Shown: piece after piece, positions 11,127-26,715 of the stretch
Layout of the letters: every line of letters starts with the position of its first letter
How positions within the stretch are numbered: the first letter of the stretch is position 1
Assembly: GCA_964539385.1 (NCBI GenBank)
Contig: CAZIJC010000003.1
Coordinates: forward strand, 1,503 to 65,502
Length of the DNA: 64,000 nt
Reading direction: 5' to 3'
Origin: an uncultured Anaerolineales bacterium
GTDB lineage: Bacteria; Planctomycetota; Phycisphaerae; FEN-1346
Translations under genes and position numbers: made by a program
The notes under the pieces: model-generated
What the model was told of the DNA's origin: nothing
Database searches by the model: none
What the model saw: only the letters and a program-made list of their open reading frames with translations

Positions 11127-11143
11127 ACGTCCGATAATGAGTG
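11127..11143. repeat. prophage left attachment core: 17-bp direct repeat (XerC-arm + central region of a dif-like site)
   Basis: ACGTCCGATAATGAGTG identical to 55231-55247; sits at the left edge of the phage gene block. Confidence 0.6.
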
Positions 11144-11189
11144 CGGGGAGGTGCCGAAAAACGGACCTATGGCGGGGAGTCGATAGGTG

Positions 11190-11400
11190 GGTGGCGGGCC
11201 TTGCGCGCGCAGGCAGGGAAGGGCGGGAGTATCGAACCCCCACGCCGAGTTGGAGTCTGACCCCGACCGGCCAATGGTGATGACGGTGGGAATCTGACAA
11301 ACGCGGGGGTTCGATTTCGCCGAAATCTGGTGCATGGTTTCAGACTCCAACTCTATGCGACACCCCCAGGTTAGGCGGCTCCCAAAAGCCGCGTCAAGAA
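11190..11400. other. structured non-coding region with interleaved inverted repeats and a tRNA T-arm-like motif
   Basis: ATCGAACCCCC (11231) / GGGGGTTCGAT (11314) and GAGTTGGAGTCTGA (11247) / TCAGACTCCAACTC (11340); minus strand carries GGGGGTTCGATACTCCC; no ORF with coding character. Confidence 0.3.
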
Positions 11401-11402
11401 AA

Positions 11403-11445
11403 AAACGAAAAAAAATCCGCCGGCCTTGCTTTCGCCGGGTTTTTC
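11403..11445. terminator. bidirectional intrinsic terminator
   Basis: A8-CCGGC-(loop)-GCCGG-GTTTTT hairpin flanked by T-runs on both strands. Confidence 0.4.
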
Positions 11446-11475
11446 AGCCATAATGACATAGAAATCCTGGCATTC

Positions 11476-11898
11476 GTGGGAGTCGGAATCATGGGTAACT
11501 TGCGCATGCGTTTGCCGATGTTGTTGTCTCTGGCGGCCCTGGTGTCCGCGGTCGTGGCCCTGATCCTGGCGATTGGTGCCTGCCGGCAGCCGGCGGCCGA
11601 GGTGGTGGTTGTTGACGAGGCCGGCCGTGTTCGCGTGCGGCTCGGCGTCCTTGGCGACAACACCATTGGTCTCGGCCTGTATGACGCCAACGGGCGCCGG
11701 CGCGGTGCCTTTCATTTTGTTGAGGCCCTTGACGCGGCCAGTCTCGAGGTAAAAGGCACCGGCGCCCCGTACTCGCCTACCGTCACGGTGGCCACGGTGG
11801 GGACGGCCATGGTTTCCCTGGGCGACGAGGATGGCCGGTTCTTCGGTTTGACTCCCAACGGCCCGCAGACCTTTCTCAATCCCTTCCCGCCCCCTTAG
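11476..11898 (+). CDS. hypothetical secreted protein (prophage, attL-proximal)
   Basis: Signal-peptide-like N-terminus MRLPMLLSLAALVSAVVALILAIGAC; 140 aa. Confidence 0.45.
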   Translation: MGVGIMGNLRMRLPMLLSLAALVSAVVALILAIGACRQPAAEVVVVDEAGRVRVRLGVLGDNTIGLGLYDANGRRRGAFHFVEALDAASLEVKGTGAPYSPTVTVATVGTAMVSLGDEDGRFFGLTPNGPQTFLNPFPPP

Positions 11899-12115
11899 AC
11901 GGCGGGCGCCCTCTGGTCAGGGCGATCCCCCGTGCCGCTGCCGCGGCTCGCACGGCCTTCGCCGAGACCGACCGCCCAAATCGACGGCTGAGGTTGGCCG
12001 CGATCGCCGGGGCCTGGTAGCCGGCCGAGGCCATTCGCTTGAGCACACTGCGCGGCCGACCGCGCCGGCCAGTTGCCGTAAATTGAATCGCATCCCACCA
12101 GTTGACTGCCACCAT
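11876..12115 (-). CDS. small basic protein, paralog A of 12389-12607
   Basis: MVAVNWWDAIQFTATGRRGRP...AVRAAAAARGI is about 50% identical to the neighbouring 72-aa gene; internal ATG at 12115. Confidence 0.5.
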   Translation of the reverse strand: MVAVNWWDAIQFTATGRRGRPRSVLKRMASAGYQAPAIAANLSRRFGRSVSAKAVRAAAAARGIALTRGRPPSKGAGRD

Positions 12116-12301
12116 AGGTTCCCATTCGGCCAGGCCGTTGGCACAAATCAAGGAAAAAGGGCCAGGATGGCGCAGGACGGCCGCGAGCCCCTGGGGGATG
12201 GCCCACCATAGCCTCGCTTCACTCCGCGTGGCGTGGCGCAAGCCTGGTGGCCCAGGGCAGGGCGTGGCGCGGGGGTCACGGCCATCCTGGCGGGAGCGCG
12301 C

Positions 12302-12343
12302 AAAAAAAGGGCCGGCCCCAGGGGTGGTGGCCTGGGGCCGGCG
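12302..12343 (-). terminator. intrinsic terminator (minus strand)
   Basis: GGGCCGGCCCCA / TGGGGCCGGC stem followed on minus strand by T7. Confidence 0.5.
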
Positions 12344-12388
12344 GTTACCGTGCCGCGACAAGCGGCATCGGCCATGGTGGTCTGACGG

Positions 12389-12607
12389 TTAGGTGTGGGG
12401 CCGGCCGCGCTTCAGCGTGATCTTCGCGCGGGCGGCGGCCTTGCGCACGGCCAGGGCCGTGACCGTTCGGCCAAAGTGCTCCGTTAGGATGGCCGCTATC
12501 TCCGGCGCCTGCCGGCCGGCCTTGGCCATTTGCCGCAGCATGGTGACCGGCCGCCCCGGTCGGCCCTTTGTCAATTGTATGGTATTCCACCAGTTGATTG
12601 CTGCCAT
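12389..12607 (-). CDS. small basic protein, paralog B
   Basis: MAAINWWNTIQLTKGRPGRP...AVRKAAARAKI; tandem paralog of 11876-12115. Confidence 0.5.
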   Translation of the reverse strand: MAAINWWNTIQLTKGRPGRPVTMLRQMAKAGRQAPEIAAILTEHFGRTVTALAVRKAAARAKITLKRGRPHT

Positions 12608-12619
12608 GGGATTGCCCTT

Positions 12620-12889
12620 TCACGTGGTGACCACGTCGGCGTGGTCACGGATAAACCTGGCCGAGTCGCCCAGGTAGGCGGCCATGCCCTTGCCGTCGAG
12701 TGGGGTGAGGGCCTTGAGCACCGCTTTCCAGGGGCCGGCCAGGCCCTTGCGTTTGCCGACCGGGCGTACCGTGATGCCGCTGCCATTGACCTTGACCAGC
12801 ACGTTATACCGCTCGCCCTCAAGGTACATCGACAGGTGTAGCACGGCCGTGCCGTCTGGTTTGTTGGTGACCTCAATGGCCATGGTCAT
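12620..12889 (-). CDS. hypothetical phage protein
   Basis: 89-aa ORF; ATGA overlap with upstream gene stop. Confidence 0.45.
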   Translation of the reverse strand: MTMAIEVTNKPDGTAVLHLSMYLEGERYNVLVKVNGSGITVRPVGKRKGLAGPWKAVLKALTPLDGKGMAAYLGDSARFIRDHADVVTT

Positions 12890-13326
12890 TCCCCCCCGGC
12901 CGCGTGTGCATCCTGGGCCTTGATGATTTGCTGCACGTGCTCCCGCACGGTATCGACCTTGACCACGAAACCCTGCCCCGACTCCGGGGCCAGGCGCTCG
13001 GCCTTATACGTCCTGTAGGCGCACTCCGCGGCCTTACCGCAGCACGCCCAACATATCGACAAGGCCAAATCCGCCGGGCCACTGCCGGCGTAGCCGAATT
13101 GAAACCCGGTGGGACTGTGCCGCACCACGTGGGGCAGGGGGACCTTTTTGCCCACGGCGTCCATCACCTCGGCCTTGACCGTCCCGTCGGTCTGCCGCTG
13201 CACGATGATGAGATTGTTGCCTGCCAGGCCAAGGCCGGCCGCGCAGCACGTCGAGCAAAAACCCGTATCGCTGTATACCAGGCTCAAGCGCCGGGTGTGC
13301 TTTCTGCATAGGCTGCATTGTGCCAT
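12886..13326 (-). CDS. hypothetical phage protein with N-terminal Cys cluster
   Basis: CSLCRK...CSTCC zinc-ribbon-like N-terminus, conserved-looking HSPTGFQFGYAGSGPADLALSI core. Confidence 0.5.
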   Translation of the reverse strand: MAQCSLCRKHTRRLSLVYSDTGFCSTCCAAGLGLAGNNLIIVQRQTDGTVKAEVMDAVGKKVPLPHVVRHSPTGFQFGYAGSGPADLALSICWACCGKAAECAYRTYKAERLAPESGQGFVVKVDTVREHVQQIIKAQDAHAAGGE

Positions 13327-13422
13327 TGTGCACCACCTTTTTGTTGAGGGTTTCCCCTAGCACCGGCAGGGCGCCCATGACCGCCACGAGCCATCCCGCC
13401 GGCACCAGGTGAGAGGCTGTGT

Positions 13423-13833
13423 TTACGCTTCCGCTGTCGGCCCCGGCAAATGCTTGAAGTGTTCGACCACCGTTTCGACGTAATCCGCACACCGGGCGGC
13501 GCCGGCGATCTCATCGCCCCGCATTCGCAACGGTTGTGTGTGCCGCAGCAACACGGTGGCCTCTTGTAGTGCTTTGTCGATGCGTTCTAACTGTGCCATG
13601 ATGCGCTGGCCGCCCTTGATCCCCCTGGCCGCTGCTGTTTCGCGCTCGACAAAGGCAGACACGGCCGCCTCGGCGCCCCAGGGCGACGAATCGACCAGCG
13701 TGTGCGCGGGCACCGTCGATTCGGTGCCTGGCAGGAGTTGCGCATCATCCCGGTTTGCCCGCCATCCCTTGCCTTTCGCGTCCAGCGCGACGGTCCACTC
13801 TTGCCCCCACACTTTTATGCGGAGCGTGCTCAT
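13423..13833 (-). CDS. hypothetical phage protein
   Basis: Start at internal ATG 13833 directly preceded by the repeated leader element (RBS AAAGGTGG). Confidence 0.45.
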   Translation of the reverse strand: MSTLRIKVWGQEWTVALDAKGKGWRANRDDAQLLPGTESTVPAHTLVDSSPWGAEAAVSAFVERETAAARGIKGGQRIMAQLERIDKALQEATVLLRHTQPLRMRGDEIAGAARCADYVETVVEHFKHLPGPTAEA

Positions 13834-13906
13834 AAGACACCACCTTTCTACATGGCCACCATTGGCCGGCCGGCAGGTCCGGCCCCAGGGCCAGGCCCGC
13901 CGAGGC
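13834..13906 (-). repeat. repeated intergenic leader element R1, copy 1 (truncated)
   Basis: CCACCACCTTTC..GGCCACCATTGGCCGGCCGGCAGGTCCGG...CCAGGCCCGCC shared with copies at 14815 and 15273. Confidence 0.7.
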
Positions 13907-14814
13907 TCATTCCTCAAGGTTATCTACCAGGTCGGACACGGCCGCCCAATTGTCGGCCACGCCTTGCAGGTGCTTGCGGGCCTCGGCTTCGCGGTCGAGC
14001 CCTTGCTCCCATAGGGTCTTATCGCGCTCGGCCTTGACCGCTTTGGTGATAAGGTCATCGAGCGTGGCCGGCTCAAGGGCGTCCAACTCCCAGGAATCCT
14101 CACCGTACTCGACCACGTAGCCCTCATATCGAGAATCGGTCACCTTTGCGGGGTTGGGCGGCGGTTGGTACTCGTCAACCTGGTCCATGTTCAAGGCCAG
14201 GCGGGTGAGGCGCACCGGCTCATCGAGAAATAGGTCGAGCCGGTCGCGTATATCCCTGGTCATGTCGATGCCGCTTGGGTCATGGTCGCCCAGGTGCAGC
14301 AACAAGATGCCCTGCCCCCGGCCCTGGTGCTGCTGAAACCGCCGGATGGCGGCGTCCCACATTTCGCTTTGACTCATGTAGCCGCGGCACGCCATGTAAT
14401 CGACGCGGAGACGCTTGGCAATGGTGTCCAGCACGCCGGCCAGGGCTTCCTTTTCGATCCAGACCTCGTTGGCTGCGCGGCCCACAGGTCGAGCCGGAAC
14501 TGGTCGGCCACCGCCTCGATCATGCTTTCGGGCGACCGCCAGGTCGGATAGGCTTCAAGGTTGCGCGTGCGGTCCTCAATCGCATCCCAATCCACCAGGC
14601 CGGCCAGGCGGGCGTCGGACAGGATGGCCCCCAGGCGCTTGTAGTTCCGCTGCACGTTCGGCATGAGACCGCGGGCCACGAATTGGTAATAGAGTTGCCG
14701 CAAGGTGAGGCGGTAACCCTGCCCGCGGTATTCCTCGATGATGGCGTTTGCCCGATTGATGGTCTCGAGTGTCGCCGGCTTGAAATCCTTGTCCACGTAT
14801 CGGATGCGCGGCAT
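13907..14814 (-). pseudogene. Topo VI-A/Spo11-like (mini-A type) protein: 5Y-CAP (LRQLYYQF) + Toprim (GDHDPSG), split by a frameshift near 14470-14485
   Basis: N-part ORF 14374-14814 (real ATG at 14814) and C-part ORF 13907-14485 are consecutive halves in frames offset by one nucleotide; no slippery heptamer. Confidence 0.5.
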
Positions 14815-14903
14815 ATCCCACCACCTTTCCTGGCCACCATTGGCCTGCCGGCAGGTCTGGCCCCCACGGCCAGGCCCGCCGGCGGGCCAATGGCCCGCCT
14901 GAA
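14815..14903 (-). repeat. repeated intergenic leader element R1, copy 2
   Basis: Full copy including GGGCCAATGGCCCGCC inverted half. Confidence 0.7.
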
Positions 14904-15272
14904 TCATTCGCCCATGGCCGCCCGGTTGCCCGCCTCTTGCAGTATGGCCGCTTGGGTGATTTCTTCGCAGGTAAGAACGTAGTGCGGCGCCGGCCCCCAC
15001 ACCAGGTCACCCCAATAGAGCGCCTCATGCAGCCGGACCTCGGCTTTGCGCTGGCCCGTCGGCTCATAGACGTAGACCACCCGGTCACGCCTTGGTTCGA
15101 TGCCGGCGTCACGGATGGCCGCCAGCGCCTGCCAAAGCGCTTCTGTGAGTGACCGGCCTTCGCCCGGCTCGCCGTCGCCAAGCCACTGGCCATTGACCAC
15201 CTGGGCCAACCACCCGGCGGCCTGCATTGTGCCGTACATGCAGACCTCTGCAACCACCTTGGCCTTTCGCAT
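14904..15272 (-). CDS. hypothetical phage early protein (first gene of leftward operon)
   Basis: Internal ATG at 15272 preceded by R1 copy 3; 123 aa. Confidence 0.45.
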   Translation of the reverse strand: MRKAKVVAEVCMYGTMQAAGWLAQVVNGQWLGDGEPGEGRSLTEALWQALAAIRDAGIEPRRDRVVYVYEPTGQRKAEVRLHEALYWGDLVWGPAPHYVLTCEEITQAAILQEAGNRAAMGE

Positions 15273-15360
15273 AACCCACCACCTTTCCTGGCCACCATTG
15301 GCCGGCCGGCAGGTCCGGTGATCCCCAGGCCCGCCGGCGGGCCAATGCCCGCCTGCCTCT
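15273..15360 (-). repeat. repeated intergenic leader element R1, copy 3
   Basis: Near-identical to copy 2. Confidence 0.7.
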
Positions 15361-15459
15361 GCCGCATCGGTCGGGCGCCCCAAGGGCCGGGCCTACCGCC
15401 CTGCGCCGGTTGTCATTTACGCCCGACTATTCACTTGCCAAAGCACTACTGCATTATAC

Positions 15460-15511
15460 CCCATTTGGGGCATTTGTCAAGCGCCCGGCCAGAAAAAATG
15501 TCCCAAATGGG
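15460..15511. promoter_or_regulatory. 16-bp inverted repeat (candidate operator) in divergent early promoter region
   Basis: CCCATTTGGGGCATTT ... AAAATGTCCCAAATGGG, 15/16 complementary, 20-bp spacer; lies in the AT-richer 500-bp gap between leftward and rightward operons. Confidence 0.45.
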
Positions 15512-15873
15512 TTGTTTATTTTTGCCCTTTGCGGCGCGGAATCAGTCTTTTTGCGAGATTTCTTGCTTGACCGCAGAATAAGAACGCGGTAGGTGTCGTG
15601 TCGATGACGCGGATGGCCGAACCGGCGGCGTGACAAGGCCAACACGTGGTGCAGGACCCCAGGCCCTACCCTACGCCCACGCCACCCCCCGATGCTGCCT
15701 TGGCACAAGTCCTTAGTATACCTCTACTTAGCGTGTGCGGGTCCTTGGGAGGCTCTTTCGAGCAATCGGGTGCAGAGTACCCGCTAAAAAAGCGCACCAT
15801 TGTTTTAGTCGCTGCTGCGTCAATTCCTTTGCCCCCAGGTGAACGGCTATAGTTATCGAAACGAGGCAATGTC

Positions 15874-16557
15874 ATGGCCAATCGCAAGCGCTTCAAACCG
15901 CCACGCCCCACCGCCAGGCCGCCGCGGGCGCCCTACATTGAGGCCGGTATCCGGTGGATGGCCGTGCCCGTCGAAACCGTGCATCCGGACCCCGAAAACG
16001 CGCGGCACCATACGCCGGCCAATCTGGCCGCGATACGCGGCAGCCTCACCGGCGCCCGGCAGCAAACCCCCATTGTGGTTGACCGGGACGGGATGATTCT
16101 CAAGGGCAACGGCACCTGGCACGCGGCCAAGGCCCTGGGGTGGGATTACATCGCCGTAAGCCTGACCACTCTCGAGGGCGCCGATGCGCGGGCCTACAGC
16201 CTGGCCGACAATCGCACGGCCGAGTTGGCCGAGTGGGATGAGACGCGCTTGGCCGTGCAACTGGCCGAGTTGCGGGCCGAGGGCAGCATCGACCTGACCA
16301 CCCTGGGATGGTCCGACGAGGAAACCCAAGAGGTGCTCAACCTGGCCGCCGGCCTGGGGCATGATACCAACCGGGGACCCGATATGCTTATCGACCGGCG
16401 CGACGCCGGCCCCTTGGTCAAGGCGGTGTTTGCGCCGTCGGCCCTGGCCCTGGTCGAGCAAGCCCTGGGCATGACCGGCCTGGTTAACCGGGGCAAGGCC
16501 CTTGAGGCCATTGCCCGGTTTTACATCGAGGCGGTGACCGATGCCGGGACAGACTAA
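15874..16557 (+). CDS. ParB-like nuclease domain protein
   Basis: ParB N-domain motifs (ENARHHTP, KGNGTWHAAKALG). Confidence 0.75.
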   Translation: MANRKRFKPPRPTARPPRAPYIEAGIRWMAVPVETVHPDPENARHHTPANLAAIRGSLTGARQQTPIVVDRDGMILKGNGTWHAAKALGWDYIAVSLTTLEGADARAYSLADNRTAELAEWDETRLAVQLAELRAEGSIDLTTLGWSDEETQEVLNLAAGLGHDTNRGPDMLIDRRDAGPLVKAVFAPSALALVEQALGMTGLVNRGKALEAIARFYIEAVTDAGTD

Positions 16558-17164
16558 AAAACAACATACCACCTTCGCCCGCAAGATGGCCCTGCGCCGC
16601 CGGATACTGGCCGAGGTCCGCTCTCGCGGCGAGCCGGTCATCATCGAAACGCACGGCGGGTGGGGCCGGCTCTGGCAGGCCCTCTATGCCGACGTGCCCG
16701 CCGGCGTGGTCTTTGAGCACAACCGCTTGCGGGCCGAGCACCTTGCCAGGCAGCGGCCCACGTGGGCGGTCTATGAAACCGATTGCGTGCGCGCCCTGGC
16801 CGCGGGGGTGGGCAGCCACCTGGTGCCCAACCTCATCGACCTTGATCCGCACGGTAGCCCTTGGGAAGCGCTTGAGGCCGCCCTGGTCGGCCTCGCCGAC
16901 CTGGCCGACCCTCTGTGGGTGGTGGCCACCGACGGCCTCCGCGAGAAACTGCGCATCACCGGGGCGTGGCCCCTGCATGCGCTCAAGGAGTTTGTCGGGG
17001 AGTTTGGGAACCGCCTGGCCGACGTGTATCTTGATGTTTGCAAGGTCAAGGTCGGACGCCTGGCGGCGCTGCGCCGGTATACCCTCGATGAGTGGCGGGG
17101 GTACTACTGTGGGGCGGGCGGGGCCATGACGCATTGGGCCGCACGCCTGGTCAAAACAGGGTAG
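16541..17164 (+). CDS. class-I SAM methyltransferase-fold protein, divergent (motif IV DPHG instead of DPPY/F)
   Basis: ETHGGWG (motif I-like), VVFEHN, LIDLDPHGSP laid out as in RsmD/N6-MTase-like enzymes; resembles the TcmP partner family. Confidence 0.4.
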   Translation: MPGQTKKQHTTFARKMALRRRILAEVRSRGEPVIIETHGGWGRLWQALYADVPAGVVFEHNRLRAEHLARQRPTWAVYETDCVRALAAGVGSHLVPNLIDLDPHGSPWEALEAALVGLADLADPLWVVATDGLREKLRITGAWPLHALKEFVGEFGNRLADVYLDVCKVKVGRLAALRRYTLDEWRGYYCGAGGAMTHWAARLVKTG

Positions 17165-17954
17165 GCGCGGGGGCCGGAAACGGAAGGGCGGGGAACTCTT
17201 GCACCACCTCACCATCGAGCAAGTGACCGGCGCTGTCGTGCCTGGGGCCGCCCCATTGCTTGAAGAAAAACGGCACGCCCGCGGCCCTGCAAAGCGCCCG
17301 GATTTCGGTCACCCAATGCTGGCGGTCCTGCCGGCAACCCCAATGCCCGCCGCGATCCCCCAGGGGCACGGCCATGCCGCGGGCGTCCCTGATGGCCGGG
17401 TCTTTGAGGTGGGGGCCGGACTCCCCGGCCACTATCACCCACCCGATGCCCTCAAGCGGCAGGTCGGGCATGGCCGACAGCATCGGCTCGGCCGACACAA
17501 ACCGCAGGCCGCACTCGACGTTGCGCAGGGCGGTGATCCGCTTGTAGTATTGGGGATTTTCGACCGTGACGCCGAGCATCACGTTAGCCGGCACGTCGCG
17601 CCGCTGCCAGTAGGCCAGCATTCCCGCGTGGCGTTTGGTGAGTATCTGAAAGACGTGGCGCGGGCAGGCCCGGATAACCTCAAGCACTTGGTCGCGCATG
17701 CCGTCGCCCGCCTGGTCAAGAAAGAAATCACTCATGGAGCAAATAAAAAACATGCCCGGCTTTTTGACCGTCCGAGGCACGTTCATCTTGTGCAACTTGG
17801 GGGTGAATCCGAAGCCATTGGGAAATGCCGGCGTGCCGGCCATGCTCTCGGCCTGCCTCTTGGCGTAGCAGTACCGGCAGCCCTCACTCACCGGGGCGCC
17901 GCCGGTCCAGGGGTTCCACGTGTGATTGGTCCAAGAGATTTTGGTATTCAGCAT
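17151..17954 (-). CDS. phage Gp37/Gp68 family protein (DUF5131)
   Basis: CSMSDFF, QILTKR, FFKQWGG family motifs; convergent to and overlapping the methyltransferase-fold gene by 14 nt. Confidence 0.6.
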   Translation of the reverse strand: MLNTKISWTNHTWNPWTGGAPVSEGCRYCYAKRQAESMAGTPAFPNGFGFTPKLHKMNVPRTVKKPGMFFICSMSDFFLDQAGDGMRDQVLEVIRACPRHVFQILTKRHAGMLAYWQRRDVPANVMLGVTVENPQYYKRITALRNVECGLRFVSAEPMLSAMPDLPLEGIGWVIVAGESGPHLKDPAIRDARGMAVPLGDRGGHWGCRQDRQHWVTEIRALCRAAGVPFFFKQWGGPRHDSAGHLLDGEVVQEFPALPFPAPAPTLF

Positions 17955-18023
17955 CGGACACCCGTTTGCCGCCACGGATTCATTTGCGGGCAGGGATAAT
18001 ACCGCGGACCGCGCAGTTGACAA

Positions 18024-18688
18024 AGACAAAAACCAAAAAATCCGCCCCGCGCAAACGCAAGCCCAAGACCAAGGCCGCGGCCAAAGCCAAGGGCAAAAAA
18101 CAAACCGGGCCGGCCAAGGCCGAGGCCGGCGGGCGGCCGGTGGGGCATCCCCGGTCCGAAGCGCCCGGACCTACGCTTGTCAAGGGCACGGCCGCCCTGG
18201 CTCAATTGCTCGGCGTGCACCAGACCACCATCAACAGGTGGGTGGCCAAAGGGTTGCCGGTCGCCGGGGCCGACACCTTCGACGTGGCCGAGGTGCTGGC
18301 CTGGCGTGAAGGCCAGGACGGCAAGGGGGGCGGCCAGGGCGGCACCGCCGATGTCGAATTGAAACAATGGCGGGCCAGGCACCTGCAACTCAAGGTGCTA
18401 AAGGACCTCAAGAAACTCATCCCCAGGGGCGAGGCCGAAGCCATTTGGATCCAAACCATCGTCAACGTGCGCACCCGCATGATGGCCCTGCCCGACCGGG
18501 TGGTCTTGCTCGTGCCGGCCAGGCTGCGGGCCGACCTGCGCGTCGAGGTGCAGCACGAGGTTGACCGTATCCTGGGCGAATTGCAAAACGGTTTTCTTAT
18601 GCCGGAGATAGAGGAACAAGTCAATGCGTTCATCGAAACCCTTATCCCCCGCGACGAGGATGCCCATGTTGCCGGGGCGGGTGCGTAG
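18024..18688 (+). CDS. terminase small subunit (start uncertain, possibly TTG at 18024)
   Basis: Lys-rich N-terminus then HTH LLGVHQTTINRWVAKGLP typical of TerS; directly upstream of TerL. Confidence 0.55.
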
Positions 18689-20642
18689 ACTCTGGCAGCC
18701 GCCCGAGCGCATGACGGCCGCCGAGTGGGTACCGCGGTGGGTGCGTCTGCCCGCGACCGTGGCGGCGATTCCCGGCCGGTGGTCGGCCGACCTTTTCCCA
18801 TACTGCACAGGGGTGCTCGATGCCTGGTGTGACCCGTACATCGAGCAGATTGTATTGGAGTGGGGGTCACAGTTGGGCAAGACCACCCTGATCGCCTGCC
18901 TCGCGCTGTACGTGGCCGACCAGGACCCCGGCCCCATGCTCTTGGCCTCAAGCGTGCAGTCGAGCGTCAAGGAACTGGTGAGCCTGCGCCTGTATCCCAT
19001 GCTTGAGGCGTGTGACCGCACCAGGGAACTCTTGCCGCCCAAGCACCTGCAAGATGATTACCTGGTCTCCCTAACGACCATGCTCATCTACACCGGATGG
19101 TCCGGCAGCGCCACGCGGATGGGCGAGAAAAGCATCCGGTACGTGATGATGACGGAATTAGATAAGTGGGCCATCCGCACGAGTCTTGAGGCCGACCCCG
19201 AACATCTGGCCGGCGAGCGCCGCAAGGCGTTTCCCAACTTCAAGATACTCAAAGAGTCCACGCCGACCATTGAGGGCCTGTCACGCATTCACTCGGCCTA
19301 CCAGGCCAGCGACCGGCGCCGCTTCCACGTGCCATGTTCCAAATGCGGCGCCTATCAGGTACTGGACCGGGCCAACGTATGGTGGCCCCACACCCAGGAG
19401 GGCAAGAGCGTGGCGCCCGCCGAGGTGCGCGACGTGGCCCTTTACGTCTGCCCCCATTGCAACGGGCGCCTTGAGGACTATCAGAAACCCCGCCAATTGC
19501 GCGCGGGCCTCTGGCTCCCCGAAGGCGTGACGGCCACCGTGATCCGCCACCGGAAAAAGGCGCGGCGGCGCGACGTGGTTTGGGGCCGCCCGCCCAAGTG
19601 GCCGGCCAGGCCGTGGCTCACCAAAGGCGTCAAGTGGAAATGGGACCTCTTTGAGTACCGGCTGGCCGGCGAGCCGGCCAAGACCACGCGCACGGCCGGC
19701 TACCACCTCGGCAGCCTCTACTCGCCGCTACTGACCTATGGCCATTATGCAGAAAAGTGGCTTGACTCCCAGGACGACCCGGCGGCCTTGCAGAACTTTA
19801 TCAACGGGTGGGATGCCAAGCCCTGGCGGCTGTCGGTCTCGATGCCAGCGGCCGAGGAACTGGGCGAGCAACTCAAGACCGGCCACGAACCGGGCACAGT
19901 GCCCAAGGGGGCCGTGATGTTGACCGCCGGCGTGGACCCCGCCGAGCATGTGATAAACTACGTCGTGCGCGCCTGGGCCAAGGATGGCACCAGTTGGCTC
20001 ATCGAGCACGGTGTGGTCGAATGGTCCAGAGACCTGCATACCGTCTACAACGCCATCATCGAACCGGCGTGGACGGTCGAGGGCGGCGGCACGATGGCCG
20101 TCCATTGCTGCGGCATCGACACCGGGTGGCAAGCCGGCGTGTGCTATGAGTTTTGCGTCCGGCAGGGCGATCGGGTGCGCGGTCTCAAGGGCCATGGGAC
20201 GGTCGGCAGCGTGTGGAAACCCCTGCGCGTGGACGTGAATCCGGAAAGCGGCAAGGTCTACAAGCGCGGTCTGGTGGTGTGGGTGATTGATTCGGGATAT
20301 TGGAAAGACCAGATACATCATCGCTGGGGTCTCGACTCCGAAAGCCCAGGCAGTTGGAACCTGCACGCCGAACCGAGCCGGCCGTACCTTCGACAGTTGG
20401 TGGCCGAGGTCAAGAGCAAGGTGACCGACAGGACCGGCCACGAAAAATTGCAATGGGTGGTGGTGGACCGCGGGGCCGGCTCGCACTATCTCGACGCCGA
20501 GGTCTACGCCATGGCCGTAGCCTACATGAAAGGGATTGGCCGCGTGGCCAGGACCCGGCGCCGGCCCGGCCGGGGCAAGGGCGGGGCGGCCCATACGATG
20601 CGCCGGTTGCGGATGCACCGGGGGCATGGACGGAAAGGGTGA
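18664..20642 (+). CDS. terminase large subunit (GpA family)
   Basis: Lambda GpA-like N-terminus (EWVPRW, LEWGSQLGKTTL Walker A), 660 aa. Confidence 0.85.
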
Positions 20643-20646
20643 GCGA

Positions 20647-20859
20647 ATGGTCAAGGTTTCTCCACGTGACGATGACAAGGCCAAGACCCGGCCGTGGATG
20701 GTCTGCCCGGAATGCGGCAGCACCGACACCGAGGTCTACAGCAGCGGCCCCAAGTGTTGGGGCCGGCGGGACGGGCAGCCGTTCCGGTACCGCCTGCAAT
20801 ACCGCCGGTGCCTGGTGCTCAAGTGCCGCGCCCGGTTCAAGGCGGTCATGCCCCTTTGA
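20647..20859 (+). CDS. small zinc-ribbon protein
   Basis: CPECGSTD...CWGRRDG...C...C; 70 aa between terminase and portal. Confidence 0.4.
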   Translation: MVKVSPRDDDKAKTRPWMVCPECGSTDTEVYSSGPKCWGRRDGQPFRYRLQYRRCLVLKCRARFKAVMPL

Positions 20860-21067
20860 TCCGCCTGCCGGCCGGCCGGAAATGGCGCCTGCGGGCCGCG
20901 CGCCGGCAAATCCGGCCTGGGATAGCCGCGCTACCGCCGCGAGGCGCCATGGCCCGCCTGGCGGCCCCCAGGGGGCAATAGACGGGAGTTGCAGGAGAAA
21001 AAGATTGTTACCAAATTGGTAATCATCCTCTTGCGGCCATGCCCGCCATCGGCTTTATCCTGAATGA

Positions 21068-21331
21068 ATGGCCACCGTAGATGACATCGAGACCCTCGCG
21101 GATGCGTGCTCGACCGCCCTGGCCGCCGGCGACTACGCCACGGCCAAACTCAAGTGGACACAACTTTCTGTGATGATAGGCGCAAAGCCGGACGTGACCA
21201 CCCCCGAATTGTCCACCCGGTGGGACCGCGCCGCGCTCGATGGCCTGGGAAAGCAAATCGCCGCGCTTGAACAAGAGACGGGACGGCGCCGGCGGCGGGT
21301 GTTGGCCGGTTTTCGCAACCGGGGCAGATAA
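21068..21331 (+). CDS. small head-tail joining (gpW-like position) protein, hypothetical
   Basis: 87-aa gene between terminase and portal; TAATG overlap with portal. Confidence 0.35.
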   Translation: MATVDDIETLADACSTALAAGDYATAKLKWTQLSVMIGAKPDVTTPELSTRWDRAALDGLGKQIAALEQETGRRRRRVLAGFRNRGR

Positions 21332-22887
21332 TGCCAAGGCCGAGTGATGGGAGTCTGGGCAATCTTCACGTGCAGTTGCGTCGCGCTTCTGAGCGCACGG
21401 TGCTCGACCGTGCCATCGGCTTCGTCTCCCCGCGCGCCGAACTCGCCCGCCTCAAGGGCCGCGTCAGCCGTACCATGCTCGGATTCCGGGCGGCCAACAT
21501 CAGCCGCCTGCGCCGCCGCCGCGACCGGACCAGCGGGTCGGCCGACCGGCATCTTACGCACGCCCAACTTCACGTGTTGCGCGAGAACGCGCGCGAGTTG
21601 GACCGCGACAATTGCATCGCCGGCGGTCTGCTCAATCGCATGGTCGATAACATCGTCGGCGAGGGCGGGCGCTTTGAGGCCCTTACCGATGACGAGCAAT
21701 GGAACACGCGGGCCGAGGGCCTGTTTGACGAGTGGGCCTTTGATGCCGACACGGTGGACGTTGCCGGGCGGTTTGCCTTTTGGGAAATGTCCCGGTCCGC
21801 GCTCCGGGCCGTGCTGGTGGACGGTGACCATCTCATGCTCAAGATTCGCAACGGCACCTTGCAGCAAGTCGAAGGTCACCAGTTGGGCACGCCGACCCGG
21901 CGCAGCATCCCGGCCGGCACGCCGTCGGGCACGCGCATCATCCACGGCGTCGAGATTACCAAAACCAACAAGCCGGTGGCCTACCATTTCGGGCCGAGCC
22001 ACCGCGGCATCGAGCATATCTTCAAGACCACCCGCGTCGAGGCCAGCAAACTCTTTTGGCTCTGGAACTGGAAACGGTGCAGCCAGACGCGCGGACAGTC
22101 GAGCCTGGCCGACACCGATATTTACTTCGAGCACCTTGACCGATATATCGAGTTTGCGATTGTGGCATCCCAGGTTGCGAGCGCCCACGTCATCGGCGTC
22201 GAAACCGAATATGGCGAAGCGTCGGGCGAGCCGGAAGGCACCACGGAACTCGATGAGTTGGGTAACGAGCAATTTGTTGAGGAGAACCAAGCGGGCACCA
22301 TGCTCTACATGGAGCCGGGGGAGAAAGTCAAGCCTCTCACGCCCGCCCACCCGATGCCGGAGTTTGAGCCTTTCTTGCGGGCCTTCGGCCGCATCATCGG
22401 CCTGCCCTATGGCCTGCCGATCGAGGTGGTCCTGCTCGACTGGTCGCAGGGCAACTACGCCAGCGCCCGCGGGGCCATGCAGCAGGCCAAAAAAGCCTGG
22501 CGAAACTGGCAGAAATACATCTACACCCACCTTATGTGGCCGGTATGGGTTTGGAAGATTCGCCAGTTTATCGCCGAGGGAAAACTGGCCAACCGTGATG
22601 ACCACGCCAAGATGCTGTGGGTGGGGCCTGGGTGGGATTGGATTGACGTTTACAAAGAGGTCGTGGCCGCCGAACGGGGTATCGGGTGCGGCATCGAAAG
22701 CCGGGCCAGGGTGCTCATGCAGCGCGGCCTGGACCTGGGGAACCTCATGCGCGAGCGGGCCAAGGCCATCGTGATGGCCAAGGCCATCGCCAAGGAGTTT
22801 GAGATTGAGAATTACAAAGACGTGCTCGGCAAGGTGAAAAAGCCGGCCGGCCGCGCGACGAAGCGCGGCGGTACGCAAGGGGAGTGA
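21331..22887 (+). CDS. portal protein, lambda (gpB) family
   Basis: Collinear similarity to lambda gpB including GNYASARGAMQQAKKAW and WVGPGWDWID blocks. Confidence 0.85.
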   Translation: MPRPSDGSLGNLHVQLRRASERTVLDRAIGFVSPRAELARLKGRVSRTMLGFRAANISRLRRRRDRTSGSADRHLTHAQLHVLRENARELDRDNCIAGGLLNRMVDNIVGEGGRFEALTDDEQWNTRAEGLFDEWAFDADTVDVAGRFAFWEMSRSALRAVLVDGDHLMLKIRNGTLQQVEGHQLGTPTRRSIPAGTPSGTRIIHGVEITKTNKPVAYHFGPSHRGIEHIFKTTRVEASKLFWLWNWKRCSQTRGQSSLADTDIYFEHLDRYIEFAIVASQVASAHVIGVETEYGEASGEPEGTTELDELGNEQFVEENQAGTMLYMEPGEKVKPLTPAHPMPEFEPFLRAFGRIIGLPYGLPIEVVLLDWSQGNYASARGAMQQAKKAWRNWQKYIYTHLMWPVWVWKIRQFIAEGKLANRDDHAKMLWVGPGWDWIDVYKEVVAAERGIGCGIESRARVLMQRGLDLGNLMRERAKAIVMAKAIAKEFEIENYKDVLGKVKKPAGRATKRGGTQGE

Positions 22888-22889
22888 CC

Positions 22890-24497
22890 ATGCCGTTTGT
22901 CAACTACCACAACTGCCGGCTGAAAGACCCCGGCAAGTTCAAGGACGGCAAAGACAATTGGGCCACGGTCGGGCGAAAATCGGCCAGCAAGGGGGGCCGC
23001 GCTTACCTGGCGGTCCGGGGCGTGCTCAAGGCCACGGGCAAGTGGGCCGACCAGGCCCTGCGCTATGCCAAGGGCAGGTGGCCCAAGGCCGTGGCCCAAA
23101 GCCATTGCAAGGCCCACAAGGGGATACTCTTTGAGCCGGCCAAGGGTACCAGCGCGCCGGCCGATCCCGATGACGTGGCCGAGGTCCTGGCGGTCGGATG
23201 GTATGGGCCGACAGACGTAAGCGCGGCCGAGCCGTGCCCGACCGGCATGGACGATGAGGCCATCGACGCCCACGACCTGGGCGTCGGCCTTGAGGATGGT
23301 GCCACCCCGGCCATCGGCCAGGTCGCCGCGGGGGGCACGGTGGAATTGCCGACCGAAGCGCTGTGCCTGGCGGCCGGCGAGGAGTCAATCGAACTGGCTG
23401 CCGATGACGGCGACGGCGGCAGCACACAGTTCAAGATGGTGGCCTACAGCGGCCACCCCATTGTGGGGCACTGGTATTACGGCACCCTGGTCCTGGACTG
23501 TGCCGGCATGGTCTTTGACGGCGCCAAGATGGCCGTGCTGCGCGAGCACGAGCGCGACCGCATCGTCGGCCTGGCCCCCACCAAGGATATTGAGCATAAC
23601 ACCGCGCTGGTGGTTTCCGGGAAGGTGCTCGACACCGGGGATGGCCGCGAGGTCGTGAGCCTGTCGAAGCAAGGTTTTCCGTGGCAGGCCAGCATGTATT
23701 TCCGGCCCCTGGGTGACGTGACCCAGTTGGCCAAGGGCGAGACCATGACGGTCAACGGCCACCCGGTACGGGGACCGGCGTATGTATTCACCAAGACCCG
23801 GATACGCGAGGTGAGTTTCTGCACGCTGGGTGCAGACCATAGGACCCGCGCACGCGCGTGGGCCGCTGCCGATGATGGCCCGGCGGCCATCACCGTCCAA
23901 TCGAGCAAACCTGATGAGGAGCATGAGCCCATGGCAGAAACACCAACCCCAGGCGCCGAAGCGCCCCCGGCCGCAGACCTGTCGAAAGTCACGGCCGAGC
24001 AATTGCGGAGTGCCAACCCGGACCTGGCCGCGGAACTGGCCAAGGCGCCGGCGGGCACCGTCGAGGAACTGAAAGCGGCCATGCCCGATGCGCCGGCCGA
24101 CTTTCTCTTGGAGCAAGTCCAGGCCGGGGCCAGCGTGGCCGACGCCCGCGGGAACTGGGCGAATAAGGTGCTCAAGGAAAAGGCCGCGGCGGCCGAGGCC
24201 GATGCCACGACCACCGCGCCGGTCGAGACGGCCGGCGACGGGACGGGCGCCGAGGACGTGCCCAAGACGTTTCGCCAGGCCGTGGCCGTGGTCCAAAAAG
24301 AGCGGGCCGAGGAAGGGCGGCCGGTGAGCCGGTCCAAGGCCATGAGCCTGGTGGACGGGCGGTGGCCCGACTTGCGCAAGAAGATGGTGGCCGCGGCCAA
24401 TCCCACCAAGACGGCTGCCGTGGACGGCCACTTTGCCGCGGCCGAGGCCAGCGAATTGCCGCACGCCCGCAAGGCCGCCAACACACCGGGCGGTTAA
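22890..24497 (+). CDS. prohead protease (HK97/S78-like) fused to Ala/Glu-rich scaffold-like C-terminal region
   Basis: Central GHPI..GTLVLDCAGMVFDGAKMAVLREHE..IVGLAP..VVSGKVLDT..LSKQG..ASMYF resembles S78 proteases; C-terminal third low-complexity A/E/K. Confidence 0.6.
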   Translation: MPFVNYHNCRLKDPGKFKDGKDNWATVGRKSASKGGRAYLAVRGVLKATGKWADQALRYAKGRWPKAVAQSHCKAHKGILFEPAKGTSAPADPDDVAEVLAVGWYGPTDVSAAEPCPTGMDDEAIDAHDLGVGLEDGATPAIGQVAAGGTVELPTEALCLAAGEESIELAADDGDGGSTQFKMVAYSGHPIVGHWYYGTLVLDCAGMVFDGAKMAVLREHERDRIVGLAPTKDIEHNTALVVSGKVLDTGDGREVVSLSKQGFPWQASMYFRPLGDVTQLAKGETMTVNGHPVRGPAYVFTKTRIREVSFCTLGADHRTRARAWAAADDGPAAITVQSSKPDEEHEPMAETPTPGAEAPPAADLSKVTAEQLRSANPDLAAELAKAPAGTVEELKAAMPDAPADFLLEQVQAGASVADARGNWANKVLKEKAAAAEADATTTAPVETAGDGTGAEDVPKTFRQAVAVVQKERAEEGRPVSRSKAMSLVDGRWPDLRKKMVAAANPTKTAAVDGHFAAAEASELPHARKAANTPGG

Positions 24498-24559
24498 TGG
24501 CCGGCCGCCGATTGTAGAGGGGTTGACCGGGTGAGGGGTAAAATCGAAAGGTACTGGCC

Positions 24560-25069
24560 ATGAGCACCCAATCGCACTCAGCCGCGGCTAAAGCCAAAGC
24601 CAAGGCCGACGCCGAAGCCAAGAGGGCGGCCGACGCCGACGCCGATGCCGAAGCCAAGAGGGTAGCCGAAGCCGAAGCGGACGTCGAAGCCGAAGCGGAC
24701 GCCGAAGCCAAGAGGGCGGCCGACGCCGAAGCGGACGCCGATAGAGACGAACATGCCGGGGCCGACGGGAAGCGCAGGTCGGACGATGTACCGGGGACCA
24801 CACGCGAGCCTGATGCCCCCAAGCCGGGGAGTGACGCCCCCCGGCCGGGGGCCGAGCGTGGTCAACCTGCCACCGGGGTTGCCGCCGCGACCGCCGCGGC
24901 CGGCCAACCCGCGACGTTGGAGGAGGCCGTTGAAAGCCACCTCAAACGTCACCCGACCTGCCACCGTTGGCTTGCCGTGGACATCTGCCGCCAGGCTTAC
25001 CCGGAACTCGCCGGCCTGCCGCCCACGCGGTTAAGCCGGCAGCGCGCCAAGCAACGGCAAGGCGGGTAG
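24560..25069 (+). CDS. Ala/Asp/Glu-repeat protein (scaffold-like), hypothetical
   Basis: Tandem (ADAEAKRAAD)-like repeats encoded by DNA tandem repeat 24590-24750. Confidence 0.45.
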   Translation: MSTQSHSAAAKAKAKADAEAKRAADADADAEAKRVAEAEADVEAEADAEAKRAADAEADADRDEHAGADGKRRSDDVPGTTREPDAPKPGSDAPRPGAERGQPATGVAAATAAAGQPATLEEAVESHLKRHPTCHRWLAVDICRQAYPELAGLPPTRLSRQRAKQRQGG

Positions 25070-25156
25070 CCGCCAAATGAGGGAGACGTGAGCGACGTGG
25101 CTGGCCGGCCACGTGATGCCGGCCAAGCATGAACCCAAACACAGGGAGTTACGCAA

Positions 25157-25555
25157 ATGGCTCGACAAATCGAAAACGGGCACGTGACCTTGCAGGTCAA
25201 TGCCACGGTGGCCGTGACGCGGTTCGCCCTGGTCAAACTGACCAGCGGCCTCATCGTCCTTAACACGGTGACCGAGACCGACGTGCCGGTCGGCGTCGTG
25301 CAGAACGCGGGCGCCGTCAACACCCGCCAGGACGTGCGATTGCTGTCCGATCCTGGGACGTTCAAGATGGTCGCGTCCGGCGTCATCGCCCTCGGCGCCG
25401 ACGTTTACGCCGCGGCCATCGGAAAAATCTCTGCGCTGCCGGTCGGCGCCGGCGATTACCGGCGCGTCGGCCAAGCCCTTGAGGCCGCCGCCGCCGACGA
25501 AGACATCATCGAGGTGCTGCCGTCCCATGACCATCACATCGAGACCGTGACCTGA
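25157..25555 (+). CDS. head decoration protein (gpD-like position, DUF2190-like)
   Basis: 132-aa gene between protease and major capsid, strong RBS AGGGAG. Confidence 0.5.
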   Translation: MARQIENGHVTLQVNATVAVTRFALVKLTSGLIVLNTVTETDVPVGVVQNAGAVNTRQDVRLLSDPGTFKMVASGVIALGADVYAAAIGKISALPVGAGDYRRVGQALEAAAADEDIIEVLPSHDHHIETVT

Positions 25556-25664
25556 TAGACGGTCACGAGTCTCGCAAGGGTTGTAACCGCCCGGTCGGGG
25601 CGTCTCGGCCTGGGAGACAAAACGACGGCGTGGCCGTTGCCACGCGCGGAAAGGAGTAAGTGCC

Positions 25665-26642
25665 ATGGCCGTTAGCGCAGCCGCTACCCTGCAACGCCCG
25701 GACCTGGGCGTTACCATCGAGGAATACCGGCTTGAGGCGCTCAGCCGGTCCCTCATCGCCGACCAGGCGCTGCCGCTGTTTGAGGTGGCCCTGCAATCCG
25801 CCGAGTTCGGCGTGATCCCGGTCGAGACTGGCCTGCGCGTCCCCGACACCAACCGGGCGCCCGGCGCCGCGTACCCGCGCGGTGACTGGCAGTTTGAGAC
25901 CGACTACTATGCTTGCTCCGAGCATGGTTGGGAGGAGGTGGTTGACGACAGCCGCGCCGCCATCTACCGGCGTTTCTTCGACGCCGAGCAAGCGACCGCG
26001 AGAAAGGCGGCCAAGGTCTTTTACACGGCCCGCGAGTACCGGGCCTCGGCCTTGCTGTTCAACACGACCACCTGGTCGGTGGCGGACACCGAAAAGCAGA
26101 CGGTTAGCGTGGAGTGGGACACGTCGGCCACCGCCGTGCCGCGCGCCGAGATTCTCAAGGCCCGCAAGCAAATCCATGCGGTGACCGGCCTCGAACCGAA
26201 CGCGCTCATCGTGACGTGGAGCACCTACCATGACTTGCTCAACTGCGCGAGCATTCTCGACGCCCTGAAATACACCGCGCCGCTTGAGGTCAGCCCGGAA
26301 GTTGCGCGGCGCCGCATCCTGGCCACCGTGCTCGGCGTTGATCGGATTCTGGTCGGGGGTGCCATCTACAACAGCGCTCTCGAGGGCGCCACGCCAACGC
26401 TCGTGCCCGTGTGGGACGACGAGTACGCCATGCTGGCCTGCGTCTGCGAGGAAAACGCGGACCTCGAAATCCCCGCCGTCGGGCGCACGTTCCTCTTTAC
26501 CGGCGACTCCCCCGACCTGGTGGTCGTGGAAAGTTACCGCCTTGAGGAAAGGCGCAGCGACGTGATCCGCCTGCGGCAGCACGTGCACGAGAAAGTGCTC
26601 CGCAAAGACGTGGCCATCCTGTTTGACAACATCACCACCTGA
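25665..26642 (+). CDS. major capsid protein (lambda gpE / phage major capsid protein E family)
   Basis: 325 aa, follows decoration gene, RBS AAAGGAG; characteristic length and position. Confidence 0.8.
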   Translation: MAVSAAATLQRPDLGVTIEEYRLEALSRSLIADQALPLFEVALQSAEFGVIPVETGLRVPDTNRAPGAAYPRGDWQFETDYYACSEHGWEEVVDDSRAAIYRRFFDAEQATARKAAKVFYTAREYRASALLFNTTTWSVADTEKQTVSVEWDTSATAVPRAEILKARKQIHAVTGLEPNALIVTWSTYHDLLNCASILDALKYTAPLEVSPEVARRRILATVLGVDRILVGGAIYNSALEGATPTLVPVWDDEYAMLACVCEENADLEIPAVGRTFLFTGDSPDLVVVESYRLEERRSDVIRLRQHVHEKVLRKDVAILFDNITT

Positions 26643-26715
26643 GTCATCTTCCGCGCAATCCACCGGCGCCGGGCCGGCCGGCCGGCCCGGCGCCCGAGCC
26701 CGTCGGGGGCCGCCA

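What the first reader, a model, noticed from the sequence alone, without database searches (positions are those of the whole stretch)
13907..14814. Spo11/Topo VI-A-like 'mini-A' protein (5Y-CAP Tyr + Toprim DxDPxG) interrupted by a frameshift
The N-part carries LRQLYYQFVARG (Spo11/TopoVIA catalytic YY motif). The C-part carries HLGDHDPSGIDM (Toprim DxDPxG). The two halves lie in frames offset by one nucleotide with a roughly 110-nt overlap around 14470, and there is no slippery heptamer. A stand-alone Topo VI A-like protein in a prophage early region fits the described mini-A class in mobile elements. It is either a pseudogene, a sequencing error or an unrecognised recoding event, and its role is unknown.
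Basis: partly seen in the sequence, partly recalled or inferred. Interest (0 to 1): 0.65.

Follow-up and report, generated by a model that had tools for sequence, protein, structure and literature searches.

The report
Broken phage Mini-A topoisomerase-like gene
A prophage gene for a small topoisomerase-VI-A-like protein of a known but uncharacterised phage family ("Mini-A") has been cut in two by a 7-base deletion, so it is most likely a recently inactivated gene and not a new coding mechanism.

Summary
On the minus strand, 14814-13907, two overlapping reading frames carry the 5Y-CAP half (RQLYYQ) and the Toprim half (EVWIEKE, DHDPSG, SWELDAL) of one protein. Joined, they match phrog_6247 "DNA topoisomerase" end to end (E 1.4e-109). 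They are 49% identical (E 4e-93) to Pseudomonas phage NP1 gp49, a reference Mini-A of Takahashi et al. (PMC7671362).

The break is a net 7-nt deletion, not a 1-nt slip. All 32 aligned homologous proteins, and the genes in all 16 other family loci inspected at DNA level, have 21 nt between Trp111 and Glu-Val-Trp. The window has 14 nt (14481-14468).

The two-frame zone has no slippery heptamer and no homopolymer, and no homologue shares the shift. A -1 shift product would still lack two residues just before Toprim strand β1.

A contig from a second JGI sample is 100% identical, so a random assembly error is unlikely. The rest of the gene is undecayed: 71 of 72 family-invariant residues are kept.

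The gene lies in a 44-kb prophage bounded by 17-bp direct repeats, and a related Anaerolineales MAG has the empty site.

Verdict: a recent pseudogene of a known family. Interest is low.

The parts
13907..14814 (-). Whole disrupted Mini-A gene. It is 908 nt; adding 7 nt gives 915 nt, or 304 codons plus a stop.
   Evidence: The joined protein hits phrog_6247 at E 1.4e-109 and is 49% identical to NP1 gp49.
14374..14814 (-). N-part ORF of 146 aa. Residues 1-116 are the genuine 5Y-CAP half, followed by a 30-residue out-of-frame tail and TGA.
   Evidence: JGI called it as a 146-aa gene in both contigs.
14683..14700 (-). RQLYYQ, the R-x-x-Y-Y motif carrying the presumed catalytic tyrosine (Tyr43, codon 14688-14686).
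   Evidence: R39, Y42 and Y43 are invariant in 33 sequences. The motif is defined in PMC7671362.
14468..14481 (-). Site of the lesion: 14 nt (GCCGCGCAGCCAAC) between the Trp111 codon and GAG-GTC-TGG, where every homologue has 21 nt. This is a net 7-nt deletion.
   Evidence: Protein alignment, DNA alignment with the closest intact gene showing a single 7-nt gap, and the 16 other family loci, all with the intact spacing.
13907..14485 (-). C-part frame from the first possible start (GTG, no Shine-Dalgarno upstream) to the stop; 192 aa comprising the Toprim half and the C-terminal helices.
   Evidence: AF2 model pLDDT 82.9, and the best natural PDB match is M. mazei Top6A.
14447..14467 (-). EVWIEKE, Toprim strand β1 with the metal-binding Glu (codon 14455-14453). 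It is readable only in the C frame.
   Evidence: E, W, E, K invariant. The AF2 strand spans 116-121.
14270..14287 (-). DHDPSG, the Toprim DxDxxG metal-binding motif.
14075..14092 (-). WELDAL, the T2BI-box signature that distinguishes Mini-A from Topo VI and Topo VIII.
   Evidence: invariant; PMC7671362.
14815..14895 (-). Upstream module of the gene: a long hairpin followed by the GGAAAGGTGGTG Shine-Dalgarno. It is one of three copies of an intergenic repeat.
11127..55247 (.). The prophage that carries the gene, about 44.1 kb, bounded by the 17-bp direct repeat ACGTCCGATAATGAGTG (11127-11143 and 55231-55247).
   Evidence: An Anaerolineales MAG at about 89% nt identity joins window ~10674 to ~55513 with one copy of the core. 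Phage genes inside are shown.

Best explanation
This is a recently inactivated copy of a phage Mini-A gene. Mini-A is a stand-alone, roughly 300-aa homologue of the type IIB topoisomerase A subunit (Topo VI-A/Spo11), and this copy sits inside an integrated 44-kb prophage.

Shown: a net 7-nt deletion lies in the short loop between the 5Y-CAP half and Toprim strand β1 and moves the Toprim half into the -1 frame. Translation from the intact hairpin/SD/ATG module therefore yields only the 116-residue CAP half plus a 30-residue nonsense tail.

Inferred: the complete Toprim half is not made. Its only start codon that includes the catalytic Glu is a GTG with no ribosome-binding site. The downstream starts with better context, or with an ATGA overlap on the N-frame stop, lack strand β1.

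Inferred from the family, not tested: the intact ancestor, reconstructed as ...DLWAAQPTRVEVWIEKE..., 304 aa, would act as a dimer. The tyrosine of R-x-x-Y-Y would attack DNA to form a 5'-phosphotyrosyl link, with Mg2+ held by the Toprim Glu and DxD. It has no ATPase partner, so it would more probably be a cleavage/rejoining or nicking enzyme of the phage replication-recombination module than a strand-passage topoisomerase.

The deletion is young, because nothing else in the gene has decayed.
For: - The joined frames match a phage family profile end to end.
- 118 of the 120 best homologues are single proteins of 286-327 aa.
- All 32 aligned homologues and the genes of all 16 other family loci keep exactly 7 residues between Trp111 and EVW, where the window has 14 nt instead of 21.
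- DNA alignment with the nearest intact gene shows one 7-nt gap in 200 nt of otherwise gap-free, 86% identical alignment.
- The N frame still reads Q-P-T-R, the family's commonest Q-P-x-R pattern, up to the gap. One 7-nt deletion from CAG CCA ACG CGN/AGG GTC GAG GTC explains both frames (inference).
- The two-frame zone has no slippery heptamer and no homopolymer, and there is no SD before GTG 14485.
- An IMG/VR scan for family members with the shortened spacing gave 0 hits, against 5 with the intact spacing.
- The same allele occurs in a second JGI sample's contig, 2984/2984 nt identical.
- 71 of 72 invariant columns and 33 of 33 columns conserved at 90% or more are retained.
- Prophage status is shown by att repeats and an empty site.
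Against: - Apart from the deletion the gene is perfect, and the break falls exactly at the CAP/Toprim domain boundary. A two-piece enzyme or a recoded product would look the same.
- No intact allele of this same lineage was found. The nearest homologue is 75% identical, so the timing and the exact ancestral sequence are inferred.
- The two samples may come from the same site or culture, so they may not be independent populations.
- Read pileups could not be inspected.
Confidence: 0.8

Rival explanations
1. Functional split or unrecognised recoding. Either the CAP half and the Toprim half are both made, through a -1 or +2 shift in the 14-nt junction or through separate initiation, and they assemble into an active Mini-A, or the ribosome bypasses the lesion.
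For: - The break lies at the domain boundary, in a loop between helix 110-113 and strand 116-121 of the model.
- Both halves keep essentially all family-invariant residues.
- The upstream SD/ATG module is intact.
- Two-subunit forms are mentioned in the literature for the related Topo VIII. The text seen does not say where those are split.
Against: - There is no slippery heptamer, homopolymer or other known shift signal in the zone.
- To keep the Toprim Glu, a shift would have to occur within about 20 nt of non-slippery sequence.
- The product would lack 2 residues in a segment whose length is invariant in all 48 homologues examined.
- The only start codon that keeps strand β1 has no SD.
- No other family member found shares the shift.
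Confidence: 0.08
2. Sequencing or assembly artefact. The real genome has an intact 915-nt gene and the 7-nt gap was introduced during assembly.
For: - Only assemblies were available and no reads were seen.
- The otherwise flawless gene is what an artefact would leave.
- The local sequence may have contained a short direct repeat (GAGG..GAGG), though this is inferred.
Against: - A contig assembled from a different JGI sample (3300005782, against 3300028837) is identical over 2984 nt, including the gap.
- The gap is 7 nt in non-homopolymeric sequence, which is not a usual short-read or long-read error.
- The flanking host region aligns colinearly over 8.5 kb with a related MAG.
Confidence: 0.07
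3. It is not a Topo VI-A relative at all. The YY and DxDPxG motifs are chance resemblances in an unrelated phage protein.
For: - Pfam, NCBIfam and PDB sequence searches give no significant hit.
- Foldseek E-values are weak, 0.012 and 0.009, and generic Rossmann-like folds score similarly for the C half.
Against: - The top Foldseek hit for the full model is Topo VI-A 1d3y_B, aligned across both domains.
- The best natural hit for the C half is M. mazei Top6A at probability 0.98 over 170 columns.
- TP6A_N is the only Pfam family that recurs, below threshold, among members.
- The protein is a close homologue of NP1 gp49, which the defining paper places among the Mini-A representatives of type IIB enzymes; that paper found Mini-A in PSI-BLAST/tblastn screens and built a homology model (of the Listeria Mini-A) on Topo VI-A 1D3Y.
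- All catalytic motifs are invariant across the family.
Confidence: 0.03

Closest known systems
Mini-A subfamily of type IIB topoisomerase A-like proteins (Takahashi et al., NAR Genom Bioinform 2020, PMC7671362), for example Pseudomonas phage NP1 gp49 (YP_009285860); PHROG phrog_6247 'DNA topoisomerase'
   Same: About 300 aa. R-x-x-Y-Y, Toprim Glu, DxDxxG and xWELDAL are all present. It is encoded by a prophage with no GHKL B subunit nearby. It is 49% identical to NP1 gp49 over 290 aa and covers the profile end to end.
   Different: The reading frame is broken by a net 7-nt deletion between the two domains. The gene neighbourhood (small unknown ORFs, DUF6166, ParB-like protein) differs from the replication-recombination module around NP1 gp49.
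Topoisomerase VI subunit A / Spo11 (PDB 1D3Y, 9O0G; Pfam TP6A_N PF04406)
   Same: The same two-domain logic, a winged-helix 5Y-CAP with a catalytic Tyr plus a Toprim with E and DxD. These are the best structural matches for the full model and, among natural proteins, for the C half.
   Different: The window protein is about 100 residues shorter and lacks the N-terminal CAP segment that binds subunit B. It has no B subunit, does not reach the Pfam threshold, and carries WELDAL in place of the Topo VI T2BI box.
Programmed -1 ribosomal frameshifting in phage genes (for example the tail assembly chaperones G/GT, or dnaX)
   Same: Two overlapping frames offset by -1 within one functional unit.
   Different: There is no slippery heptamer, no conservation of the shift in homologues, and the shifted product is not colinear with the family.

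Membership tests
Mini-A (Takahashi et al. 2020) | Full-length sequence homology to recognised Mini-A proteins of about 300 aa | tested here: met
   BLASTP against phage NP1 gp49, the representative in the paper's alignment figure: 49% identity, E 4e-93 over 290 aa. phrog_6247 at E 1.4e-109, profile positions 4-301 of 303.
Mini-A (Takahashi et al. 2020) | 5Y-CAP with a conserved Arg and R-x-x-[Y/F]-Y catalytic tyrosine | tested here: met
   RQLYYQ at 14700-14683. R39, Y42 and Y43 are invariant in 33 sequences.
Mini-A (Takahashi et al. 2020) | Toprim metal-binding residues: Glu followed by DxDxxG | tested here: met
   EVWIEKE (14467-14447) and DHDPSG (14287-14270), both invariant, but they are readable only in the -1 frame.
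Mini-A (Takahashi et al. 2020) | T2BI box with the xWELDAL signature | tested here: met
   SWELDAL, with WELDAL at 14092-14075, invariant.
Mini-A (Takahashi et al. 2020) | Encoded by a virus or provirus, with no adjacent B (GHKL/Bergerat) subunit | tested here: met
   Prophage with att repeats and an empty site in a relative. It also carries TerL, RusA, an O-like initiator and a ParB-like protein. Pfam and PHROG scans of the neighbouring ORFs found no GHKL.
Mini-A (Takahashi et al. 2020) | One uninterrupted polypeptide carrying both domains | tested here: not met
   A net 7-nt deletion at 14481-14468 separates the domains into two frames. By descent it is a member, but not an intact one.
Type IIB topoisomerase A subunit / Spo11 | Significant match to Pfam TP6A_N or the Topo VI-A Toprim models | tested here: not met
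   No Pfam hit for the window protein at E up to 1. TP6A_N appears only below threshold in 3 of 33 family members, best E 0.044. A profile search against PDB sequences gave no topoisomerase.
Type IIB topoisomerase A subunit / Spo11 | Topo VI-A fold (5Y-CAP plus Toprim) | tested here: inconclusive
Type IIB topoisomerase A subunit / Spo11 | Works with an ATPase B subunit; DNA cleavage through 5'-phosphotyrosine | not testable with these tools
   No B subunit was found nearby. Activity needs biochemistry. According to a 2024 review seen here, the role of Mini-A is still unexplored.
Programmed -1 ribosomal frameshift | Slippery X XXY YYZ heptamer (or homopolymer) in the overlap | tested here: not met
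   None in the 181-nt two-frame zone.
Programmed -1 ribosomal frameshift | Frameshift conserved among homologues | tested here: not met
   0 of 32 aligned proteins and 0 of 16 other loci. 0 IMG/VR hits with the shortened spacing.

The most novel reading that the evidence does not exclude
The 7-nt deletion has produced, or is tolerated because of, a working two-piece Mini-A. A CAP fragment carrying the catalytic tyrosine and a separately initiated or recoded Toprim fragment would assemble non-covalently. This would be a natural split of a type IIB A subunit at its domain boundary.
Probability: 0.06. Interest if true: 0.55.

Novelty: new member of a known kind. Interest (0 to 1): 0.15.

Why it matters
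It matters little on its own. Mini-A is a very large phage family: the search returned its ceiling of 8000 homologues. A 2024 review seen here still describes its role as unexplored. A naturally broken copy shows only that this prophage's lysogenic maintenance does not need the protein.

The practical value is for annotation. The two short ORFs that the metagenome pipeline called here (146 aa and 175 aa, no domain hits) are halves of one Mini-A pseudogene and should not be counted as two novel proteins.

The prophage boundaries, the att core and the empty site give a clean, well-defined Anaerolineales-type prophage, should anyone want to study Mini-A or its unusual intergenic hairpin modules.

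Tried and rejected
- **Direct searches with no significant hit.** I ran Pfam, NCBIfam, PADLOC and PDB sequence searches with the joined protein, and a profile of 33 members against PDB sequences. This fits the family's known remoteness from Topo VI and rules out a known defence-system protein.
- **Search for an intact or shared allele of the same lineage.**
  - An IMG/VR scan with the shortened spacing gave 0 hits.
  - A JGI metagenome scan with a variable gap gave 7 hits, all with the intact spacing and all only 65-69% identical at DNA level.
  - That collection did not return the window's own contig, so a lineage-level comparison or dN/dS test was not possible.
- **Supplementary tables of the Mini-A paper.** They are not held. 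The link to the family was made through phage NP1, which is named in the main text.
- **Programmed frameshift.** Rejected: no slippery site and no homopolymer.
- **Single-base indel.** Rejected: the spacing is 7 nt short.
- **Integrase.** None was recognised among about 30 ORFs scanned. This stays unresolved.
- **Rfam on 10.5-18.5 kb.** No hits.

Full report
**1. What is in the sequence**

On the minus strand an ATG at 14814 opens a frame reading MPRIRYVDKDF...LRQLYYQFVARG...FRLDLWAAQPTR. It then runs into 30 residues unlike any homologue and stops at 14376-14374.

One nucleotide back, a second frame is open from 14554. It reads ...NEVWIEKEALAGV...HLGDHDPSGIDM...SWELDAL... to a stop at 13909-13907.

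A scan of the 181-nt zone open in both frames found no X XXY YYZ heptamer and no homopolymer of 5 or more.

**2. It is one gene of a very large phage family**

- The joined halves match PHROG phrog_6247 "DNA topoisomerase" at E 1.4e-109, covering profile positions 4-301 of 303.
- A search of 5.8 billion proteins returned 8000 hits, its ceiling. Of the best 120, 118 are single proteins of 286-327 aa. The other two are the window's own 175-aa C fragment as JGI called it, and a 415-aa protein with an internal duplication.
- Many cultured phages carry the gene annotated as "DNA topoisomerase", including Pseudomonas NP1 and PaMx25, Achromobacter JWF and Rhodobacter RcRudolph.

**3. Which family**

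Takahashi et al. (PMC7671362) described "Mini-A" as virus- and provirus-encoded homologues of the type IIB topoisomerase A subunit, about 300 aa long. [quoted passage not shown] The function is unknown.

All four signatures are present here and invariant across 33 aligned members.

Phage NP1 is one of the Mini-A representatives in that paper's alignment figure. Its gp49 is 49% identical to the joined window protein over 290 residues, E 4e-93.

Pfam and PHROG scans of the neighbouring ORFs show no GHKL ATPase.

A 2024 review still calls the role of these proteins unexplored.

**4. Relationship to Topo VI-A/Spo11**

This link is weaker by direct test, as expected for a distant subfamily.

| Test | Result |
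|---|---|
| Pfam, NCBIfam, PDB sequence search | No significant hit |
| Pfam TP6A_N across 33 family members | Below threshold in 3 of 33, best E 0.044 |
| AF2 model of the joined protein | pLDDT 81.8 |
| Foldseek PDB, full model | Top hit M. jannaschii Topo VI-A 1d3y_B: E 0.012, probability 0.82, aligned across both domains, TM 0.27 |
| Foldseek PDB, C half alone | Best natural hit M. mazei Top6A 9o0g_C: E 8.8e-3, probability 0.98, TMq 0.44 over 170 columns; designed Rossmann folds score similarly |

**5. The nature of the break**

- In all 32 aligned homologues there are exactly seven residues between the invariant Trp111 and the invariant Glu-Val-Trp that begins Toprim strand β1, for example WADQANRVEVW and WKDQPVRVEVW.
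- The genes in all 16 other family loci inspected at DNA level (L003-L018) show the same spacing.
- The window has 14 nt there (14481-14468) instead of 21.
- A DNA alignment with the closest intact gene (75% aa identity) shows a single 7-nt gap in an otherwise gap-free stretch: CAGGCCAACCGGGTCGAGGT against CAGCCAA-------CGAGGT.
- The gene is 908 nt, and 908 + 7 = 915, which is 304 codons plus a stop.
- Up to the gap the N frame still reads Q-P-T-R, the family's commonest Q-P-x-R pattern. After the gap the C frame reads E-V-W.
- One 7-nt deletion from ...CAG CCA ACG (Arg) GTC GAG GTC TGG... explains both frames. This ancestral sequence is my inference.

**6. Not programmed recoding**

There is no shift signal. 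The shift is absent from every homologue examined. An IMG/VR scan for members with the shortened spacing gave 0 hits, against 5 with the intact spacing using the same anchors.

A -1 shift product would also lack two residues in a segment whose length never varies in the homologues examined. To keep the Toprim Glu, the shift would have to happen within about 20 nt of non-slippery sequence.

Separate translation of a complete Toprim half is unlikely as well:
- The only start that includes EVWIEKE is GTG 14485, with no Shine-Dalgarno upstream.
- GTG 14434 (JGI's choice) and ATG 14377 (ATGA overlap with the N-frame stop) both lack strand β1.

**7. Not a random assembly error**

The window is part of JGI contig Ga0309839_1000176 (sample 3300028837). 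A 2984-nt contig from a different sample (3300005782, Ga0079367_1021486) is identical at every base, including the junction. Both were called as 146-aa plus 175-aa genes.

I could not inspect reads, and the two samples may be related.

**8. The lesion is recent**

The window protein keeps 71 of 72 columns invariant among the 32 homologues. The one change is a conservative Ile to Met. It also keeps all 33 columns conserved at 90% or more. Its upstream hairpin/SD/ATG module is intact.

This is what a young pseudogene looks like. It is also the only real argument for the rival "functional split" reading, to which I give about 8%.

**9. Setting**

- A MAG labelled uncultured Anaerolineales (CAYVAM010000042.1) matches the flanking host DNA at about 89% identity. 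It joins window ~10674 directly to ~55513.
- The intervening 44.1 kb is bounded by a 17-bp direct repeat, ACGTCCGATAATGAGTG, at 11127-11143 and 55231-55247. The core is present once at the empty site.
- Genes recognised inside the element:
  - a large terminase
  - a DUF5131 protein
  - ParB-like proteins
  - RusA
  - an O-like replication initiator
  - a D12 methyltransferase
- The element sits upstream of rpsU and a gene that I take, from its position after rpsU, to be dnaG.
- The Mini-A gene lies near attL in a short minus-strand cluster of small unknown ORFs. Whether the cluster is "early" was not tested.
- I recognised no integrase.

**10. Verdict**

The family is already described and a broken copy is ordinary, so interest is low.

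Noticed in passing
window 13833-13902, 14811-14895, 15269-15350 (minus strand): Three copies of an ~85-nt intergenic module lie directly upstream of three consecutive minus-strand genes, including Mini-A. Each has a long hairpin followed by GGAAAGGTGGTG and ATG. Two copies fold at -53 and -61 kcal/mol (z -3.8 and -5.1). The apical stem sequence differs between copies but still pairs. The 29-nt core occurs 3 times against 0 expected, and there is no Rfam match. It may be an intercistronic processing or stability element, or an operator.
   Followed up: partly
window 44288-44333, 44860-44943, 45505-45556: A second, unrelated family of intergenic repeats (46-52 nt, 85-94% identical) lies just upstream of consecutive minus-strand genes in the RusA/replication region. 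By eye it again has a short hairpin followed by a CAGGAAAGG-type ribosome-binding site.
   Followed up: no
window 11127-11143 and 55231-55247; L020 (CAYVAM010000042.1) ~7500-7530: Prophage attachment sites: a 17-bp direct repeat, ACGTCCGATAATGAGTG, flanks a 44.1-kb insert upstream of rpsU. A related Anaerolineales MAG (~89% nt identity) has the uninterrupted site with one copy of the core.
   Followed up: yes
window 11144-55230 (whole prophage): No integrase or recombinase was recognised among about 30 ORFs scanned with PHROGs and Pfam, despite clean att repeats. Not every ORF was scanned, so this is unresolved.
   Followed up: partly
window 11876-12361 (-) and 12389-12607 (-): Two tandem paralogous small ORFs (...NWW.AIQ.T..GR.GRP...MA.AG.QAP.IAA.L...FGR.V.A.AVR.AAAARGI.L.RGRP) sit next to attL, with matching DNA repeats at 12078-12118 and 12570-12610. 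They have no family hit.
   Followed up: no
protein P0002 (ENA contig, 3540 nt): A 415-aa Mini-A homologue contains an exact internal duplication of about 113 residues of the Toprim segment (VCGRWDVPFFACKGY...ELDALEPAFIDT twice). It is either a tandem duplication or an assembly artefact.
   Followed up: no
window 47267-49291 (-): A 674-aa prophage protein has an N-terminal Cys-rich motif (CRVCGD...CADC) and a central ParB_N domain. The rest is unassigned.
   Followed up: no
window ~36350-38320: A stretch of about 2 kb between tail-region genes has no ORF with the usual third-position GC bias of this genome. Only odd-composition minus-strand ORFs were picked up by my crude gene caller.
   Followed up: no
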